Assembly: GCA_044222185.1 (NCBI GenBank) | Contig: JBGANV010000007.1 | Coordinates: forward strand, 192,001-256,000 | Source: Planctomycetota bacterium | Lineage (GTDB): Bacteria; Planctomycetota; GCA-002687715; CAIWVZ01 | Length of the DNA: 64,000 bases | Direction: 5' to 3' | Shown here: piece after piece, positions 23,285-27,555 of the stretch | How the letters are laid out: each line of letters opens with the position of its first letter | How positions within the stretch are numbered: position 1 is the first letter of the stretch | Notes under the pieces: generated by a model | What the model was told of the DNA's origin: nothing | What the model saw: the letters and a program-made list of their open reading frames with translations, nothing else | Databases searched by the model: none | Translations under genes and position numbers: made by a program

Positions 23285-24022
23285 TCACACGGTCCGCACG
23301 GCGGGCATCGTCTTGCCGTAGATCGGGAGCAACGCTCCGGTGATCGCCCGCGCGCTTGGCGATGCCAGGAAAACCACCGCGTCGGCGACTTCGTCCGCGA
23401 GCAGCGGCCGGGAGGGTGGCCATTCGTTCGCCGTGGCCTCGGCCTTCTTCGGGTCCTTTTCCACGGCACCCGGGCAGACGGCGTTGACCCGGATCCGGTG
23501 GTCCTTCAGGTCCTGGGCGAGCGCGAGGGTGAGCCCGTTCAGGCCGAATTTCGTAGCCACGTGCGGGGCCACGTTCCGGTCGCCCACCATTCCGTGGATC
23601 GAGGAGACGTTGACGATCGACCCGCCCCCGCGCGCGTGCATGGGGTCGATGACCGCACGGCAGCCGTACATGGCCGAAAGCAGGTTGCTTCGCAACACGT
23701 CTTCGAACGCGTTGGGATCCCAGTCGCGGAATGCCCGCCAGACGAATCGGGCGGCGTTGTTGACGAGGATCGAGACCGGCGCGCCGGCGCGGCGGTGCAC
23801 CTCCTCGACGAGACGTTCCCACTCCTCGACCTTCGTCACGTCGGCCGCGACGAGATCCGCGTTGCCGCCGCGCTTGGAGATCTCGGCAACGGTCTGCTCG
23901 AGGGTCGCTTTCGTGCGGCCGCAGACGATGACCGTGGCACCTGAGTCGGCGAGTTTTCGGGCGATCGCCGAGCCGATCGTGCCGCCGCCGCCGGTCACGA
24001 GAGCCACTTCGTTATTGAGCAT
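23285..24022 (-). CDS. SDR family oxidoreductase with an atypical HxxxK motif
   Basis: ALVTGGGGTIG, LVNNAA, IVNVSS, HVATK and VNAVCPG motifs. Confidence 0.88.
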   Translation of the reverse strand: MLNNEVALVTGGGGTIGSAIARKLADSGATVIVCGRTKATLEQTVAEISKRGGNADLVAADVTKVEEWERLVEEVHRRAGAPVSILVNNAARFVWRAFRDWDPNAFEDVLRSNLLSAMYGCRAVIDPMHARGGGSIVNVSSIHGMVGDRNVAPHVATKFGLNGLTLALAQDLKDHRIRVNAVCPGAVEKDPKKAEATANEWPPSRPLLADEVADAVVFLASPSARAITGALLPIYGKTMPAVRTV

Positions 24023-24165
24023 CGAGCGTCTCCAGGAGCGCGTTCATGAGCGAGGCGCCATGTTTGCTCCGGGCGCCGGAAACCGCAAGCGGCGTCTGCG
24101 CAAGGTCCCGGACGAAACCAGCCTCTTCGTGCCGCGTTGCGCTGCATCCGAGTGCGACACGAGAT

Positions 24166-24194
24166 TTGACCCGGGCGAAAACGCGGGGTAGTCT
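24166..24194 (+). promoter_or_regulatory. Sigma70-type promoter
   Basis: TTGACC-N17-TAGTCT. Confidence 0.65.
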
Positions 24195-24200
24195 CCCGGT

Positions 24201-24358
24201 GTCCTGCTCGCGTGGTGCGAGTCGCACGAGCGGACGAGCAAGCTTCGGCGCGCGAAAGCCTCCCGGCTCCAGACGGTCGACTTCGCGCCAGTGAGAACTC
24301 GGGTTCTCACGACACCCGGGTGGGATGGTGACGCATCCCACGCGGGTGTGCTCATTTT
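24201..24358 (+). ncRNA. Candidate structured small RNA of unknown family
   Basis: Begins just after the promoter. Four consecutive stem-loops, the last followed by a T-run. No credible ORF. Confidence 0.5.
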
Positions 24359-24395
24359 CGCGGCGCCCGTCCTGATCCGACGGCGAACCGCCCCT

Positions 24396-25316
24396 TCACC
24401 GCGCCAGCCGTTCGGCGAGCGCCGCGTGGATGTCTACGAGATCTTCCGTGTCGCGCGCGTACCCGCCCGCGAGCGTGGCGACGAGCGGTACCCCCAGTCG
24501 CTCGGCCGTGCCGACGAGCAACTCGTCTCGGCGCTGGAATCCCGCCTTGCTCAGCGCGAGACCGCCGAGCTGATCCTCCTTCCACGGGTCACCTCCGGCG
24601 ACGTAGTGGATGAAGTCGGGCCGATGGGCGCTGACGGCCTTCGCGAGCGCGGGTTCGAGCGCCGCCAGGTAGCCATCGTCATCGCACCCCGTCTCCAGGC
24701 CCACGTTCAGCGACGCGGCTTCCTTCGGCGGGTAGTTGTCGTGCTGATGGATGTCGAGCGTGTAGACGCGCACGTCGTTTCGGAAGATGTGACACGTCCC
24801 GTTGCCTTGGTGCACGTCCGTGTCGACGACGAGTGGCCTCTCGATGCGGCCGTCGTCGAGGGCGAGGCGGATCGACAGCGCGATGTCGTTGAAGAGGCAG
24901 AACCCGGCCCCGCGGTGCGCGAACGCGTGATGGAATCCGCCGCCGACGTTCATGGCACGCCGCGCAACGCCGCGTTCCGCGAGTGCCCAGTCGGTCAGCA
25001 GGACCGTGCCGCGCGCCATGATTGCCTGCGCCCGCACGACGCCGGGCAGGCAGGGCACTTCGAACTCCGCGAGTCCCGCCAGGGGGTCTTCGTCGGACAG
25101 TTCGTGGACGCGGGCGATGTAGTCGGCGCGGTGCACGACGGCGAGCGTCTCGTCGTCGAGCGGTGCCGATGGTTCGATCAAGGTCACGCGGTCGAGGACT
25201 CCGAGCTCGCGGCAGCGGCGGAAGGTCCGCTCGTACTTGTCCGCCGGGAACACGTGCACGCCGAGCGGCATCTTGTACGAGGCGTGGAACGCGAGCGCGG
25301 TCGTGGCGGACGTCAC
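24396..25316 (-). CDS. Histone deacetylase family protein
   Basis: HVFPADKY, GGGFHHA, GFCLFND, DTDVHQGNGT, DQLGGL and LAGGY motifs. The GTG overlaps the dedA stop. Confidence 0.92.
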   Translation of the reverse strand: MTSATTALAFHASYKMPLGVHVFPADKYERTFRRCRELGVLDRVTLIEPSAPLDDETLAVVHRADYIARVHELSDEDPLAGLAEFEVPCLPGVVRAQAIMARGTVLLTDWALAERGVARRAMNVGGGFHHAFAHRGAGFCLFNDIALSIRLALDDGRIERPLVVDTDVHQGNGTCHIFRNDVRVYTLDIHQHDNYPPKEAASLNVGLETGCDDDGYLAALEPALAKAVSAHRPDFIHYVAGGDPWKEDQLGGLALSKAGFQRRDELLVGTAERLGVPLVATLAGGYARDTEDLVDIHAALAERLAR

Positions 25317-25972
25317 GGCGCCGGCTTGTCGTGGGAGAGGCTCGCCGTTGCGTCCGTCGGCGTCGGCTTCGCCATCCGCTTCCTCAGGTGCGGCCACGCC
25401 TTCCAGATCACGATCGCGGCAATCACCCCCGCGAGGACCCAGGCCACCCAGCCGGAAATGCGGTCGTGGATGGCCTTCCAGTTCTCCGACGCGGCGTAGC
25501 CGATCCAGATCCACAGGGGCACGCTGATGAAGGCCGCGAGTCCGTCCCAGAAGAAGAACTTCCCGAAGCCGATCCGGCTGACCCCCGCGAGGAGGAACGT
25601 GGGAAATCGGATCCCGGCCACGTGGCGGGCGAGGAAGACCGTGAGGGCGCCGTACTTGGCGTAGTACCCCTTGACCCTCTCGACGCGGGCGGGCGTCATC
25701 AAGCGGGCGATGAAGCGCCGCTTCAGGACGGCCTCGCCGTAATGCGAGCCCAGGTAATAGACGATCGAGTCGCCGACCATCACGCCTGAGTAGAGAACGG
25801 CGAACGTGAACAGCACGGAGCCCTGGCCCCGGTGCGTGATCACGCCGCCCGTGATCAGGAATACGTCCTCGGGGATCGGAAGCCCCAGGCCCGCGACGAA
25901 GAGCCCACACCAAAGGACGGGCAGACCATAGACGGTCGCCAGTTCGAGCACGTGATTGATGACGCTTTCCAC
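25313..25972 (-). CDS. dedA: DedA family membrane protein
   Basis: GLGLPIPED, GDSIVYYLG and VFLARHVAGIR motifs. Confidence 0.9.
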   Translation of the reverse strand: MESVINHVLELATVYGLPVLWCGLFVAGLGLPIPEDVFLITGGVITHRGQGSVLFTFAVLYSGVMVGDSIVYYLGSHYGEAVLKRRFIARLMTPARVERVKGYYAKYGALTVFLARHVAGIRFPTFLLAGVSRIGFGKFFFWDGLAAFISVPLWIWIGYAASENWKAIHDRISGWVAWVLAGVIAAIVIWKAWPHLRKRMAKPTPTDATASLSHDKPAP

Positions 25973-26277
25973 TGGTTGTTCCGTTGCGCGTCGGCGCCGC
26001 GCGCACCGTCGCGGACGACGGGCACCGGGGCCGAAAGGTCGCGGACTGTAACAGAACGTCTCAGACGACGATCTTCATCGAGTCCGTCCGCGGTGTGGTG
26101 AGTTTTCGTCACGCGCGTGAGTCCGCGCGGGATCGGGCGATCGCGCGACAAGCTGAGATCGTGCGCGCGCCAGTTGTCGCGGAATTGTGAATTCCGTGTC
26201 AACCGTGAAACGGGAACAGGAGATCGACCGTAGGCGTCGAATAGATCTCGCATCAGTTTCGATCCGAGGAGGAACGT

Positions 26278-27555
26278 ATGAGGAACGTGACGCTCGCGTG
26301 TTGTCTGCTCGCGCTGTTCGCGTCCGCTCTTCGCGGTCAATCCCAAGGGATTCACTGGGAAGCGGACTGGGGCAGCGGGCTGAAGCGCGCTCAGGCGGAG
26401 GGGAAGCCTCTCATGGTCGCGTTCATCATGGACGCCGAGCCGGCAAATGACGAGGTCGCGCGCCTGCACTTCCACGACGAGAAGGTGGTGGCGGCGTCGA
26501 AGGACTTCGTGTGCATGATCGCGGCGCTCGGCACGCACGACCCGGTCACTGGCGGATCGGAGATCTGCTCACGGTTCGGATGCGTGAAGTGCACCGAACA
26601 CCGTGCAATGCACATCAGGGCGCAGGAGGCCCTCCTGCGTAGCGATCAGGTTTCGGCGCCCCAGTTCGTCTTCGTGAAGCCGGACGGCAAGAGCGTGATC
26701 CTGCGCCACGTCTGGATGCTGGCGCCGCAACAGCTCGTGAAGAAGATGAACGTTGCGCTTGCCCTCCACGATCCGTCGAAGGGTGGCGAGCTCCTGAAGG
26801 AGATGCGCGCCGACGTCGAATCCAAGATCGCCGCGGCGGCTGACAACAATGCGTCCAAGCGTCAGGCGGCACTCGACGAGCTGCTCGCGCTCGATGACCC
26901 GCGAATCGACGAGTTCCTCGTCCGCCAGACGGCCGAGACGGTCGACGAGCAGAAGCGCCTCGAGGCCATCGATGCCATGGGCGGTGCTCGCTCGAATGGC
27001 ACCATCGCCGCCGTGCTGCACAAGTTGCTCGAGTCCAAATCCAGCCAGGTTCGGGCGCACGCCGCCGTCGCGGTCGAGCGTCTGGGACAGGCGGAGAGTG
27101 GCCCCGCGCTTGCCGCCGCACTCAAGCGTGAATCGAAGGAGCGCGTGCGCTCCGACCTGATCCGCGCCCTCGCCGTGTGCGACCCGATCACGCCGGCGTA
27201 CCGCAAGGCGGTCATCTCGGCCATCGGTCAGGGCTCTCAGTCGGAGCGGATCGCGGCGATCCGCGCCGTGATCCCGTTCCGCGGGGACGATGGCGTCAAC
27301 AAGGCGCTCCTGGCGGCTGCCAAGGACTCGGCGGCGCAGGTCCGCGCCGCAGCCTATTCCGCGCTCGCTCGGCGGGACGTACGGGATGCCGTCGGGCTCC
27401 TTCGCTCCGCGGTGAAGACCGAGAAGCTCCTGGATGTCCGGAACCTGGCGAATGCGTCGCTGGCCCGGATCACGGGAGAGAGCTGGCCCGGCCCCGATGG
27501 CGAGTCTGCCGTCAGCGTGAACCTGATCGACGAGGATCTTCGCTCGAAGAAGTGA
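26278..27555 (+). CDS. Exported thioredoxin-like fold plus HEAT-repeat protein
   Basis: GAGGAGG RBS, signal peptide, IHWEADW..GLKRAQAEGKPLMV (thioredoxin-like start) and multiple HEAT repeats. Confidence 0.75.
   Translation: MRNVTLACCLLALFASALRGQSQGIHWEADWGSGLKRAQAEGKPLMVAFIMDAEPANDEVARLHFHDEKVVAASKDFVCMIAALGTHDPVTGGSEICSRFGCVKCTEHRAMHIRAQEALLRSDQVSAPQFVFVKPDGKSVILRHVWMLAPQQLVKKMNVALALHDPSKGGELLKEMRADVESKIAAAADNNASKRQAALDELLALDDPRIDEFLVRQTAETVDEQKRLEAIDAMGGARSNGTIAAVLHKLLESKSSQVRAHAAVAVERLGQAESGPALAAALKRESKERVRSDLIRALAVCDPITPAYRKAVISAIGQGSQSERIAAIRAVIPFRGDDGVNKALLAAAKDSAAQVRAAAYSALARRDVRDAVGLLRSAVKTEKLLDVRNLANASLARITGESWPGPDGESAVSVNLIDEDLRSKK

What the first reader, a model, noticed from the sequence alone, without database searches (positions are those of the whole stretch)
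24166..24358. Stand-alone structured small RNA with its own promoter and terminator, between two minus-strand genes
Seen in sequence: a near-consensus sigma70 promoter (TTGACC 24166-24171, 17 bp spacer, TAGTCT 24189-24194) points into a gap with no credible + strand ORF. From the expected start (~24201) there are four back-to-back stem-loops: GTCC/GCTCG..GTGCG-agt-CGCAC..GAGC/GGAC; GCGCGAA..TTCGCGC; GTGAGAAC-tcgg-GTTCTCAC; and ACACCCG-GTGGGATG..CATCCCAC-CGGGTGT followed by a TTTT run. I do not see tRNA, SRP, RNase P, tmRNA or 6S hallmarks. A cis riboswitch is unlikely because no + strand gene follows. Inference: an unclassified ~160 nt ncRNA, convergent on the HDAC gene.
Basis: partly seen in the sequence, partly recalled or inferred. 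Interest (0 to 1): 0.75.

Follow-up and report, generated by a model that had tools for sequence, protein, structure and literature searches.

The report
Candidate species-specific small antisense RNA gene
A 150-base cluster of four hairpins behind a deacetylase gene in an uncultured sludge bacterium probably marks a small RNA with its own promoter on the opposite strand, but no relative carries it, so its function cannot yet be shown.

Summary
The -35/-10 hexamers, four hairpins and T-run are at the stated coordinates, with no Rfam match and no coding signal.

The structure alone is ordinary for this 68% GC genome: 18 of 134 sampled intergenic gaps fold as well relative to shuffles. Hairpins without a U-tract after stop codons are common.

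What stands out is the promoter. TTGACC-17-TAGTCT fits the organism's own grammar (TTGACN-16/18-TANNNT), which is about 50-fold enriched in intergenic DNA. Of 8 such sites that point at a gene's 3' end, 5 drive tRNA genes, 1 probably drives a transposase, and this site is the only other high-scoring one. A hairpin followed by TTTT is also rare here.

No homolog was found in 60 relatives. The locus is a lineage-specific insertion of the HDAC-like gene plus this gap between a DedA-like gene and an SDR gene. One metatranscriptome contig (24239-24468, strand unknown) crosses the proposed terminator.

Best reading (about 0.5): a young plus-strand RNA of about 155 nt, weakly terminated and antisense to the DedA-HDAC transcript. 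Main rival (about 0.3): minus-strand 3'-end or intercistronic hairpins with a chance promoter.

This is a new member of a known kind, of modest interest.

The parts
24166..24171 (+). -35 hexamer TTGACC
   Evidence: TTGACC is the commonest -35 variant among 109 strict-motif sites upstream of CDS in this genome (25 of 109).
24189..24194 (+). -10 hexamer TAGTCT after a 17-nt spacer, followed by a GC-rich discriminator (CCCGG)
   Evidence: TAGTCT occurs in 3 of the 109 CDS-proximal sites. CC directly after the -10 occurs in 33 of 109 such sites, against a background of about 0.095. PWM score is 11.1.
24201..24235 (+). Hairpin H1. The inferred transcription start is at about 24201.
   Evidence: -15.8 kcal/mol on the plus strand, -14.6 on the minus strand. 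The start site is inferred, not mapped.
24236..24354 (+). Multibranch domain closed by GAGC (24236-24239) and GCUC (24351-24354). It contains a 2-bp cUUCGg mini-hairpin (24242-24249), H2 (24250-24288), H3 (24291-24310) and H4 (24312-24349).
   Evidence: MFE and centroid structures. H4 is -30.5 (plus) / -26.3 (minus). H3 is -9.7 on both strands. H2 is -15.2 (plus) / -20.1 (minus).
24355..24358 (+). TTTT run 5 nt after H4; a weak candidate terminator
   Evidence: The tool flagged one terminator-like site at 24332-24350 plus tail, where shuffles give 0.6 +/- 0.8. TTTT within 12 nt of a hairpin of 8 bp or more occurs at 7 of 2202 hairpin sides in coding DNA and 9 of 273 'anti' sides in gaps, this one included.
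24239..24468 (.). Stretch covered by one 230-nt contig of a metatranscriptome run (X19); strand unknown
   Evidence: table 8: 1 differing letter, word depth 2.2. It bridges the T-run and the HDAC stop. DNA carry-over is not excluded.
24396..25316 (-). HDAC-like deacetylase gene. Its stop is 47 nt from H4. The GTG start at 25316 overlaps the stop of the upstream gene (GTGA).
   Evidence: Pfam Hist_deacetyl, E 3e-54. Relatives align from residues 5-8 of this 306-aa form. Start candidates listed.
25313..25972 (-). DedA/VTT-family membrane protein gene, upstream of HDAC
   Evidence: Pfam VTT_dom, E 4.5e-16. 48% identical to the gene directly upstream of SDR in relative G001.
23285..24022 (-). Short-chain dehydrogenase (SDR) gene, downstream of the gap on the minus strand
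   Evidence: Pfam adh_short, E 1e-50. Orthologs at 74-77% identity in 4 of 4 family genomes.

Best explanation
This is a lineage-specific small RNA gene on the plus strand.

- A sigma70-type promoter (TTGACC-17-TAGTCT with a GC-rich discriminator) starts transcription at about 24201.
- The RNA folds at once into H1 plus a three-hairpin junction (H2-H4).
- Part of it ends at the weak terminator formed by H4 and AUUUU, giving about 155 nt. The rest reads on into the 3' end of the HDAC-like gene.
- Any such transcript is perfectly complementary to the minus-strand DedA-HDAC transcript. It is also complementary to any read-through from that transcript into the SDR operon.
- The most likely mode of action is therefore cis-antisense control or transcriptional interference at the HDAC/SDR junction, not a conserved trans-acting function.

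What is shown: the motifs, the fold, the genome-wide behaviour of the motif class, and the locus history. What is inferred: promoter activity, the 5' and 3' ends, the strand of the observed RNA, and any regulatory effect.
For: Promoter class:
- TTGACA (5 of 6 or better), N16-18, TANNNT occurs 145 times in the genome: 19 in 6.29 Mb of called CDS and 126 in 0.79 Mb of gaps. 109 of these lie within 300 nt upstream of a co-directional CDS.
- Dinucleotide shuffles of the gaps give 15.8 +/- 3.6 sites, against 120 observed.
- Of the 8 sites that point at a gene's 3' end, 5 are followed by tRNA genes, starting 12-57 nt after the -10. One is followed by an uncalled ORF with a transposase HTH domain (E 8e-5, just under Pfam's cut-off). 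That leaves this site (PWM 11.1) and one weak site (7.1).
- Shuffles predict only 0.9 convergent sites per genome at 11.1 or above. They also over-predict low-scoring sites: 1 observed against 3.5 expected.
- This is the only strong promoter candidate in 23990-24440 on either strand. The 99th percentile of the best score in 451-nt coding chunks is 5.8.

Placement: the -10 ends 6 nt before H1.

Terminator: the hairpin plus TTTT arrangement is rare here. It has the same stem, short spacer and T-run layout as the ends of the tRNA-Pro gene and the 6S-like gene.

Strain variation: in a second strain (DNA run X2) the three listed differences in contig 24049-24379 lie at 24097, 24172 and 24184. All are outside the two hexamers and the hairpins.

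RNA: in RNA run X19 the only near-identical contig on the 3.4 kb laid is 24239-24468.
Against: - No homolog was found anywhere, so there is no covariation and no evidence of selection beyond one strain comparison.
- The fold is no better than in about 13% of this genome's gaps. It is at least as good on the minus strand and has no strand-specific G-U pattern, apart from one extra G-U in H2 that favours the minus strand.
- The hairpins sit where gene-end hairpins normally sit: 390 of 710 hairpin/gene-end pairs are within 100 nt after a stop, and only 15 of those 390 have a T-run.
- The PWM score is in the lower third of bona fide sites. 70% of them score higher on leave-one-out, and 18% of chance sites score as high (density ratio 1.5).
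- The U-tract has only 4 U and is offset by 5 nt.
- The RNA contig runs 110 nt past the T-run and lacks 24201-24238. It has depth 2.2 and no strand, and could be HDAC mRNA or DNA.
- A second RNA run (X18) covered only the SDR gene.
Confidence: 0.5

Rival explanations
1. The element works on the minus strand only. The hairpins are the 3'-end or intercistronic structure of the DedA-HDAC transcript. They act as U-less terminator-like hairpins or exonuclease barriers, which may also set the ratio of HDAC to downstream SDR-operon expression. The plus-strand hexamers and TTTT are chance matches.
For: - H4 starts 47 nt after the HDAC stop. This genome has 390 perfect hairpins of 8 bp or more within 100 nt after stops, and only 15 of them carry a T-run.
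- 16 of the 18 gaps with an equal or better fold z-score contain a gene 3' end.
- The minus-strand fold has the better z-score (-4.6), and H2 is 5 kcal/mol more stable on that strand.
- No sigma70-like promoter for SDR lies in the gap.
- In 3 relatives (G001, G003, G004) DedA and SDR are about 50 nt apart, so read-through across the hairpins is plausible.
- The RNA contig joins the HDAC 3' end to H4-H2.
Against: - It needs two coincidences on the other strand. The first is a high-scoring site of a motif class for which only about 0.3-0.9 convergent chance sites are expected per genome, abutting H1. The second is a TTTT after the strongest hairpin, seen at 0.3% of hairpin sides in coding DNA.
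- Four hairpins over 150 nt are more than a 3' end needs.
- Mycobacterial RNA polymerase did not terminate at hairpins lacking U-tracts in vitro (PMC3993855, abstract read). A 'terminator' role for U-less hairpins is therefore itself uncertain.
Confidence: 0.3
2. The element is a relic without function. It is a palindromic scar or leftover regulatory DNA, such as the promoter and terminator of a lost gene, brought in or created when the HDAC gene was inserted between DedA and SDR. Any transcription is noise.
For: - The HDAC gene plus gap is absent from the DedA-SDR junction in 3 relatives, and the fourth has a different neighbour.
- The element is unique in its genome.
- All stems are perfect Watson-Crick on both strands, as in young palindromes.
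- There is no conservation beyond the species.
Against: - In the X2 strain the hairpin body carries at most 1 of the contig's 4 differences, while the adjacent 152 nt carries 3. The numbers are small.
- The promoter fits the host's own grammar, including the discriminator.
- The region is represented in one RNA library.
Confidence: 0.15
3. The gap encodes a small protein, or is a riboswitch-like 5' leader of the SDR operon.
For: - ORFs of 103 and 109 aa (minus strand) and 82 aa (plus strand) span the gap.
- The SDR start lies 180 nt beyond H1 on the minus strand.
Against: - The ORFs lack the genome's codon-position GC pattern. They have no Pfam hit, and the 103-aa ORF has no homolog (only that frame and lengths of 56-181 aa were searched).
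- No Rfam cis-regulatory family matches. The best hit is nhaA-II at 20.5 bits against a cut-off of 70.4, E 0.92.
- SDR orthologs in relatives have only about 50 nt upstream, or a different unaligned upstream region.
Confidence: 0.03

Closest known systems
Chromosomal cis-antisense / convergent small RNAs with their own promoter (a general class, named from my own knowledge, not from a call)
   Same: - A stand-alone promoter faces the 3' end of a gene.
- The transcript is fully complementary to the opposite-strand mRNA 3' region.
- The RNA is short and structured, with a hairpin and U-run near its end.
   Different: No expression, strand or effect has been shown here. The element is not conserved beyond one species, and termination looks leaky.
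Gene-end hairpins of GC-rich bacteria that lack U-tracts (the 'I-shaped' putative terminators discussed for mycobacteria; PMC3993855, abstract read)
   Same: GC-rich perfect hairpins lie within 100 nt after a stop codon with no U-tract on the gene's strand. This is the pattern of 375 of 390 such hairpins in this genome.
   Different: Here there are four hairpins in a row, a strong promoter-like site abutting them on the other strand, and a T-run on that other strand.
Bidirectional intrinsic terminators between convergent transcription units (recalled; no paper read)
   Same: One palindromic hairpin (H4) could end both the HDAC mRNA and the plus-strand RNA.
   Different: Only one side has a U-run, and it is short. 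Termination was not measured, and one RNA-library contig crosses H4.
The housekeeping small RNA genes of this genome: a 6S-like RNA and the tRNA operons
   Same: - The promoter grammar matches (TTGACN, TANNNT or close, CC discriminator).
- The 6S-like gene and tRNA-Pro end with a stem, a 3-5 nt spacer and TTTTT.
   Different: There is no sequence or structure match to 6S, SRP, RNase P, tmRNA or tRNA. Those genes lie elsewhere in the genome.

Membership tests
Any Rfam 15 family | Covariance-model score at or above the family's gathering cut-off | tested here: not met
   0 matches in the whole window. In 23950-24450 at E up to 10 the only matches were nhaA-II (20.5 of 70.4 bits) and Hammerhead_II (14.2 of 37 bits).
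Sigma70-type promoter | -35 and -10 hexamers with 16-18 nt spacing that match the consensus | tested here: inconclusive
   The match is 5/6 + 3/6 with a 17-nt spacer. It fails the tool's E. coli-type threshold (0 sites). It does fit the organism's own TTGACN/TANNNT class, which is about 50-fold enriched in gaps.
Sigma70-type promoter | A transcript 5' end about 7 nt downstream of the -10 | not testable with these tools
   Only unstranded contigs of RNA libraries were available. The one contig begins at 24239.
Intrinsic (Rho-independent) terminator, plus strand | A GC-rich hairpin followed immediately by a 7-9 nt U-rich tract | tested here: inconclusive
   H4 is a 15-bp hairpin at -30.5 kcal/mol, but only UUUU follows, after a 5-nt spacer. 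The tool's one hit is within shuffle expectation. The arrangement is rare genome-wide. One RNA-library contig reads through it.
Conserved structured ncRNA (a class in the riboswitch/ribozyme/OLE sense) | Homologs in other genomes with compensatory base changes | tested here: not met
   BLAST found 0 of 40 relatives. The covariance model found 1 hit among 60 relatives at E 0.037, as expected by chance. The best hit in 35 related loci was E 0.44. The collections hold no genome of the same genus, so absence is weakly informative.
Repeat element / MITE / REP | Multiple copies in the genome | tested here: not met
   Only a self-hit by BLAST. The covariance model's other hits have E of 0.13 or worse.
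Gene-end (3' UTR) hairpin of this genome | A strong hairpin within about 100 nt downstream of a stop codon on the gene's strand | tested here: met
   The core stems of H4 and H3 lie 54 and 85 nt from the HDAC gene end. The genome-wide distribution peaks at 0-60 nt.
Small protein-coding gene | Codon-position composition of the host, and homologs | tested here: not met
   GC3/GC2 pattern absent, no Pfam hit, and no homolog for the 103-aa ORF.
Cis-antisense RNA | Transcripts from both strands overlapping at the locus | not testable with these tools
   One unstranded contig spans 24239-24468.

The most novel reading that the evidence does not exclude
The element is the founding member of a new structured RNA: H1 plus a three-hairpin junction of about 155 nt, with its own stringent-type promoter. 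On this reading it acquired a specific function in this sludge lineage, for example gating read-through from a newly inserted deacetylase gene into the ancestral SDR operon, or binding a protein. It would be neither a by-product of gene-end palindromes nor a simple antisense RNA.
Probability: 0.1. Interest if true: 0.5.

Novelty: new member of a known kind. Interest (0 to 1): 0.3.

Why it matters
If real, this is a young, species-specific small or antisense RNA that arose at the junction of a recent gene insertion in an uncultured activated-sludge bacterium. It would be a small case study of how new regulatory RNAs appear. It opens no long-standing question.

The more reusable result is methodological. 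In this genome the organism's own promoter grammar (TTGACN-16/18-TANNNT with a GC-rich discriminator) is predictive enough to recover tRNA promoters. It also singles out this locus as the one remaining unexplained high-scoring site that points at a gene's 3' end.

Tried and rejected
- **Rfam:** nothing at gathering score or at E up to 10.
- **DNA BLAST** of 24160-24365: a self-hit only in the own genome, and no match in any of the 40 relatives.
- **Covariance model R1**, built from a single sequence: the own genome gave no paralog, with other hits at E 0.13 or worse. 60 relatives gave one hit at E 0.037, which I treat as chance. 35 loci around HDAC relatives, SDR orthologs and orphan promoters gave a best E of 0.44.
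- **Synteny through the HDAC gene:** the best relatives are only 45% identical in genome contigs, 43% or less in metagenome contigs, and 37-38% in the same order. No alignable downstream region resulted.
- **Small-ORF reading:** rejected. Only the 103-aa frame was searched for homologs.
- **Riboswitch or leader of SDR:** rejected. The upstream regions of the SDR orthologs do not align beyond the start codon.
- **Repeat, MITE or integron attC:** the element is single-copy. I saw no attC core motif by eye; no attC model was available, so this was not formally tested.
- **RNA runs:** X18 covered only 23408-23724 in the SDR gene, and X19 left most of the stretch uncovered. Lack of cover is not used as evidence.
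- **DNA run X3:** it gave mostly partial, divergent pieces from other organisms and was not used.
- **Strand assignment from thermodynamics or G-U pairs:** inconclusive.
- **Taxonomy:** the organism's phylum could not be named with the tools left.
- **Papers:** only the abstract of PMC3993855 was read. The other papers were seen as a listing only. No supplements were opened.

Full report
**1. What is there**

The gap 24023-24395 (373 nt) lies between two minus-strand genes.
- A short-chain dehydrogenase (SDR) gene at 23285-24022, with its start at 24022 (Pfam adh_short, E 1e-50).
- An HDAC-like deacetylase gene, with its stop at 24396 (Hist_deacetyl, E 3e-54).

- TTGACC at 24166-24171, a 17-nt spacer, then TAGTCT at 24189-24194.
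- H1 at 24201-24235, H2 at 24250-24288, H3 at 24291-24310, H4 at 24312-24349.
- TTTT at 24355-24358.

RNAfold reproduces the hairpins and adds a 4-bp helix that closes H2-H4.

**2. Is the structure more than chance?**

Against shuffles of the same sequence, yes.
- Plus strand: z -3.2, with 1 of 200 shuffles as good.
- Minus strand: z -4.6, with 0 of 200.

Against the rest of this 7.08-Mb, roughly 68% GC genome, only moderately. I laid the genome and used a crude codon-usage gene caller of my own (4951 genes, 89% coverage).
- The gap's best 166-nt window ranks 99 of 281 sampled gaps by raw MFE, and 37 of 281 after regression on GC.
- 18 of 134 gaps have an equal or better z-score, and 16 of those 18 contain a gene 3' end.
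- Perfect hairpins of 8 bp or more occur at 0.245 per kb in coding DNA and 0.81 per kb in gaps. 94 of 4061 gaps have two or more.
- 390 of 710 hairpin/gene-end pairs lie within 100 nt after a stop, and only 15 of those 390 have a T-run of 4 or more.

Gene-end hairpins without U-tracts are therefore the norm here. H4 and H3 sit 54 and 85 nt from the HDAC gene end, exactly in that zone.

All stems are Watson-Crick on both strands. The per-hairpin energies do not pick a strand: H4 and H1 slightly favour plus, and H2 favours minus by 5 kcal/mol.

**3. Known families, coding potential, repeats**

- Rfam: 0 matches at gathering score, only noise below it.
- ORFs in the gap lack the host's GC3/GC2 signature and have no Pfam hit. 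The 103-aa ORF has no homolog.
- The element is single-copy.

**4. Relatives and locus history**

The genome is the only member of its genus in the collection.
- BLAST found the element in 0 of 40 relatives.
- A covariance model built from the single sequence gave one hit at E 0.037 in 60 relatives. I read this as chance.
- The same model found nothing in 35 related loci.
- HDAC relatives are at most 45% identical, so they give no usable synteny.

The SDR gene does have orthologs at 74-77% identity in 4 of 4 family genomes.
- In G001, G004 and G003 a DedA/VTT-family gene ends about 50 nt upstream of SDR.
- G002 has a different, divergent neighbour.
- In the window, the DedA homolog (48% identical by tblastn; VTT_dom) is at 25313-25972 on the minus strand. 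Its stop overlaps the HDAC GTG start (GTGA).

Relative to its family, this lineage therefore carries HDAC plus the 373-nt gap inserted between DedA and SDR. The hairpin element is lineage-specific. That explains the lack of homologs and makes covariation analysis impossible for now.

**5. The promoter, judged by the organism's own grammar**

The tool's E. coli-type scan finds nothing, because TAGTCT matches TATAAT at only 3 of 6 positions. The genome's own statistics tell a different story.

The pattern TTGACA (5 of 6 or better), N16-18, TANNNT occurs 145 times:
- 19 in 6.29 Mb of called CDS.
- 126 in 0.79 Mb of gaps. Of these, 109 lie within 300 nt upstream of a co-directional CDS.

Dinucleotide shuffles of the gaps give 15.8 +/- 3.6 sites against 120 observed.

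The target's own features fit this class:
- TTGACC is the commonest -35 variant (25 of 109).
- TAGTCT occurs 3 times among the 109.
- CC after the -10 occurs in 33 of 109, against a background of about 0.095.

Eight sites point at a gene's 3' end.
- Five are followed by tRNA genes that start 12-57 nt after the -10: Phe, His+Lys, Arg+Arg, Glu and Pro.
- One is followed by an uncalled ORF with a transposase HTH domain (E 8e-5, below Pfam's cut-off).
- The remaining two are the target and one weak site.

A position weight matrix from the CDS-proximal sites scores the target at 11.1. That is below 70% of bona fide sites (leave-one-out) and above 82% of chance sites, a local density ratio of 1.5.

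By class, shuffles predict 0.9 convergent chance sites per genome at 11.1 or above. Observed are 5, of which 4 are explained as above. Shuffles also over-predict low-scoring convergent sites: 3.5 expected against 1 observed.

Within 23990-24440 this is the only candidate on either strand. The next best scores are 0.98 on the plus strand and -0.07 on the minus strand. The 99th percentile of the best score in 451-nt coding chunks is 5.8.

I put the probability that this promoter is active at roughly 0.55-0.65.

**6. The terminator**

H4 (15 bp, -30.5 kcal/mol) is followed by GCUCA and then UUUU. This is weak by textbook standards.

In this genome, TTTT within 12 nt of a hairpin of 8 bp or more is rare:
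- 7 of 2202 hairpin sides in coding DNA.
- 18 of 359 sides downstream of a co-directional gene.
- 9 of 273 'anti' sides, this one included. Five of these 9 have runs of T5-T8 and sit in large gaps that probably hold uncalled genes.

The ends of tRNA-Pro and of a 6S-like RNA show the same layout of stem, 3-5 nt spacer and TTTTT.

Of the four housekeeping RNAs located, none has a promoter score as high as the target's. The 6S-like gene scores 7.7, tmRNA 3.4, SRP 3.1 and RNase P has none.

**7. RNA and strain data**

The stretch occurs in sludge and bioreactor metagenomes. I laid two RNA and two DNA runs, all as unstranded contigs.
- RNA run X19 has one near-identical 230-nt contig at 24239-24468, with 1 difference and depth 2.2. 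It covers H2-H4, crosses the T-run by 110 nt and enters the HDAC 3' end. No other part of the 3.4-kb stretch has a near-identical contig in that run.
- This fits three scenarios: a plus-strand RNA that reads through, a stable 3' fragment of HDAC mRNA, or DNA carry-over. It argues against efficient termination at the T-run.
- RNA run X18 covered only part of the SDR gene.
- DNA run X2 (another study) has a contig at 24049-24379 with 4 differences. The three listed are at 24097, 24172 and 24184. These lie upstream of the promoter and in its spacer, not in the hexamers or hairpins. The numbers are too small for a test.

**8. Reading**

The hairpin cluster alone would be filed as ordinary gene-end structure. 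Three things on the other strand lift it above that:
- a promoter of a highly predictive class that abuts H1;
- a rare hairpin plus T-run at the far end;
- no alternative promoter in the gap.

I therefore rank a plus-strand, promoter-driven RNA of about 155 nt, leaky at its 3' end, first at about 0.5.

No sigma70-like promoter for SDR lies in the gap, and DedA-SDR is a tight pair in relatives. The SDR operon is therefore probably fed by read-through from DedA-HDAC (an inference). The plus-strand RNA would then be antisense to that obligatory read-through segment. That makes cis-antisense control or transcriptional interference the most economical mechanism, though it is untested.

The other readings are:
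- Minus strand only (about 0.3): the hairpins are 3'-end or intercistronic structure. In mycobacteria such U-less hairpins did not terminate in vitro (PMC3993855, abstract), so they are more likely stabilisers than terminators.
- A functionless relic of the insertion (about 0.15).
- A small ORF or leader (about 0.03).

**9. Verdict**

At best this is a new member of a known kind, a species-specific small or antisense RNA. It has no conservation evidence and only one unstranded RNA contig behind it. Interest is modest. Strand-specific 5'/3'-end mapping would settle it.

Noticed in passing
window 25313-25972 (-) and 24396-25316 (-): A DedA/VTT-family gene overlaps the HDAC-like gene's GTG start by GTGA. 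In 3 of 4 family relatives the DedA gene sits about 50 nt upstream of the SDR gene. HDAC plus the 373-nt gap therefore looks like a lineage-specific insertion into a DedA-SDR operon.
   Followed up: yes
window 25973-26412: About 440 nt lie between the DedA gene start and the divergent HEAT-repeat gene (26413-27555, plus strand), with no gene called by my crude caller. This is presumably a divergent promoter region; I did not examine it.
   Followed up: no
genome-wide (G000); e.g. L049, L050, L053, L059, L061, L062: The organism's promoter grammar is TTGACN-16/18-TANNNT with a GC-rich discriminator. It is about 50-fold enriched in gaps. It precedes six tRNA genes or operons: Phe, His-Lys, Arg-Arg, Glu, Pro and Thr-Tyr-Gly.
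   Followed up: yes
L065 (G000:C1:77549-77724, +): A 6S-like RNA scores 42.1 bits, just under Rfam's cut-off of 46.4. It has a TTGACG-18-CATACT promoter ending 4 nt before the match, and a hairpin plus TTTTT after it. It is probably the genuine 6S RNA of this organism.
   Followed up: partly
L063 / L076 (G000:C15, about 102480-103117, -): A strong orphan promoter-like site (PWM 13.3) is followed by two direct copies and one inverted copy of a 24-nt GC-rich unit. After that comes an uncalled 198-aa ORF with a transposase HTH domain (E 8e-5). This is likely an insertion-sequence end.
   Followed up: partly
G000:C6:883428 (-), L056/L077: This is the only other unexplained promoter-like site that points at a gene's 3' end (TTGCCA-17-TATCGT, PWM 7.1). 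It has no Rfam or tRNA hit and is probably a chance match.
   Followed up: partly
G000, several gaps (not in the window): A few intergenic gaps hold 5-13 perfect hairpins of 8 bp or more. They could be repeat arrays such as CRISPR or REP-like clusters. I did not look at them.
   Followed up: no
G000: C1:111129, C7:216424, C7:297561, C7:755014, C16:163820: Canonical hairpin plus T5-T8 terminators point away from the neighbouring called gene, inside large gaps. They probably mark genes or RNAs missed by my crude gene caller.
   Followed up: no
L068 (G000:C1, downstream of tmRNA 1034119-1034473, -): A run of 13 G lies about 20 nt after the tmRNA match. It may be an assembly artefact or a homopolymer tract.
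   Followed up: no
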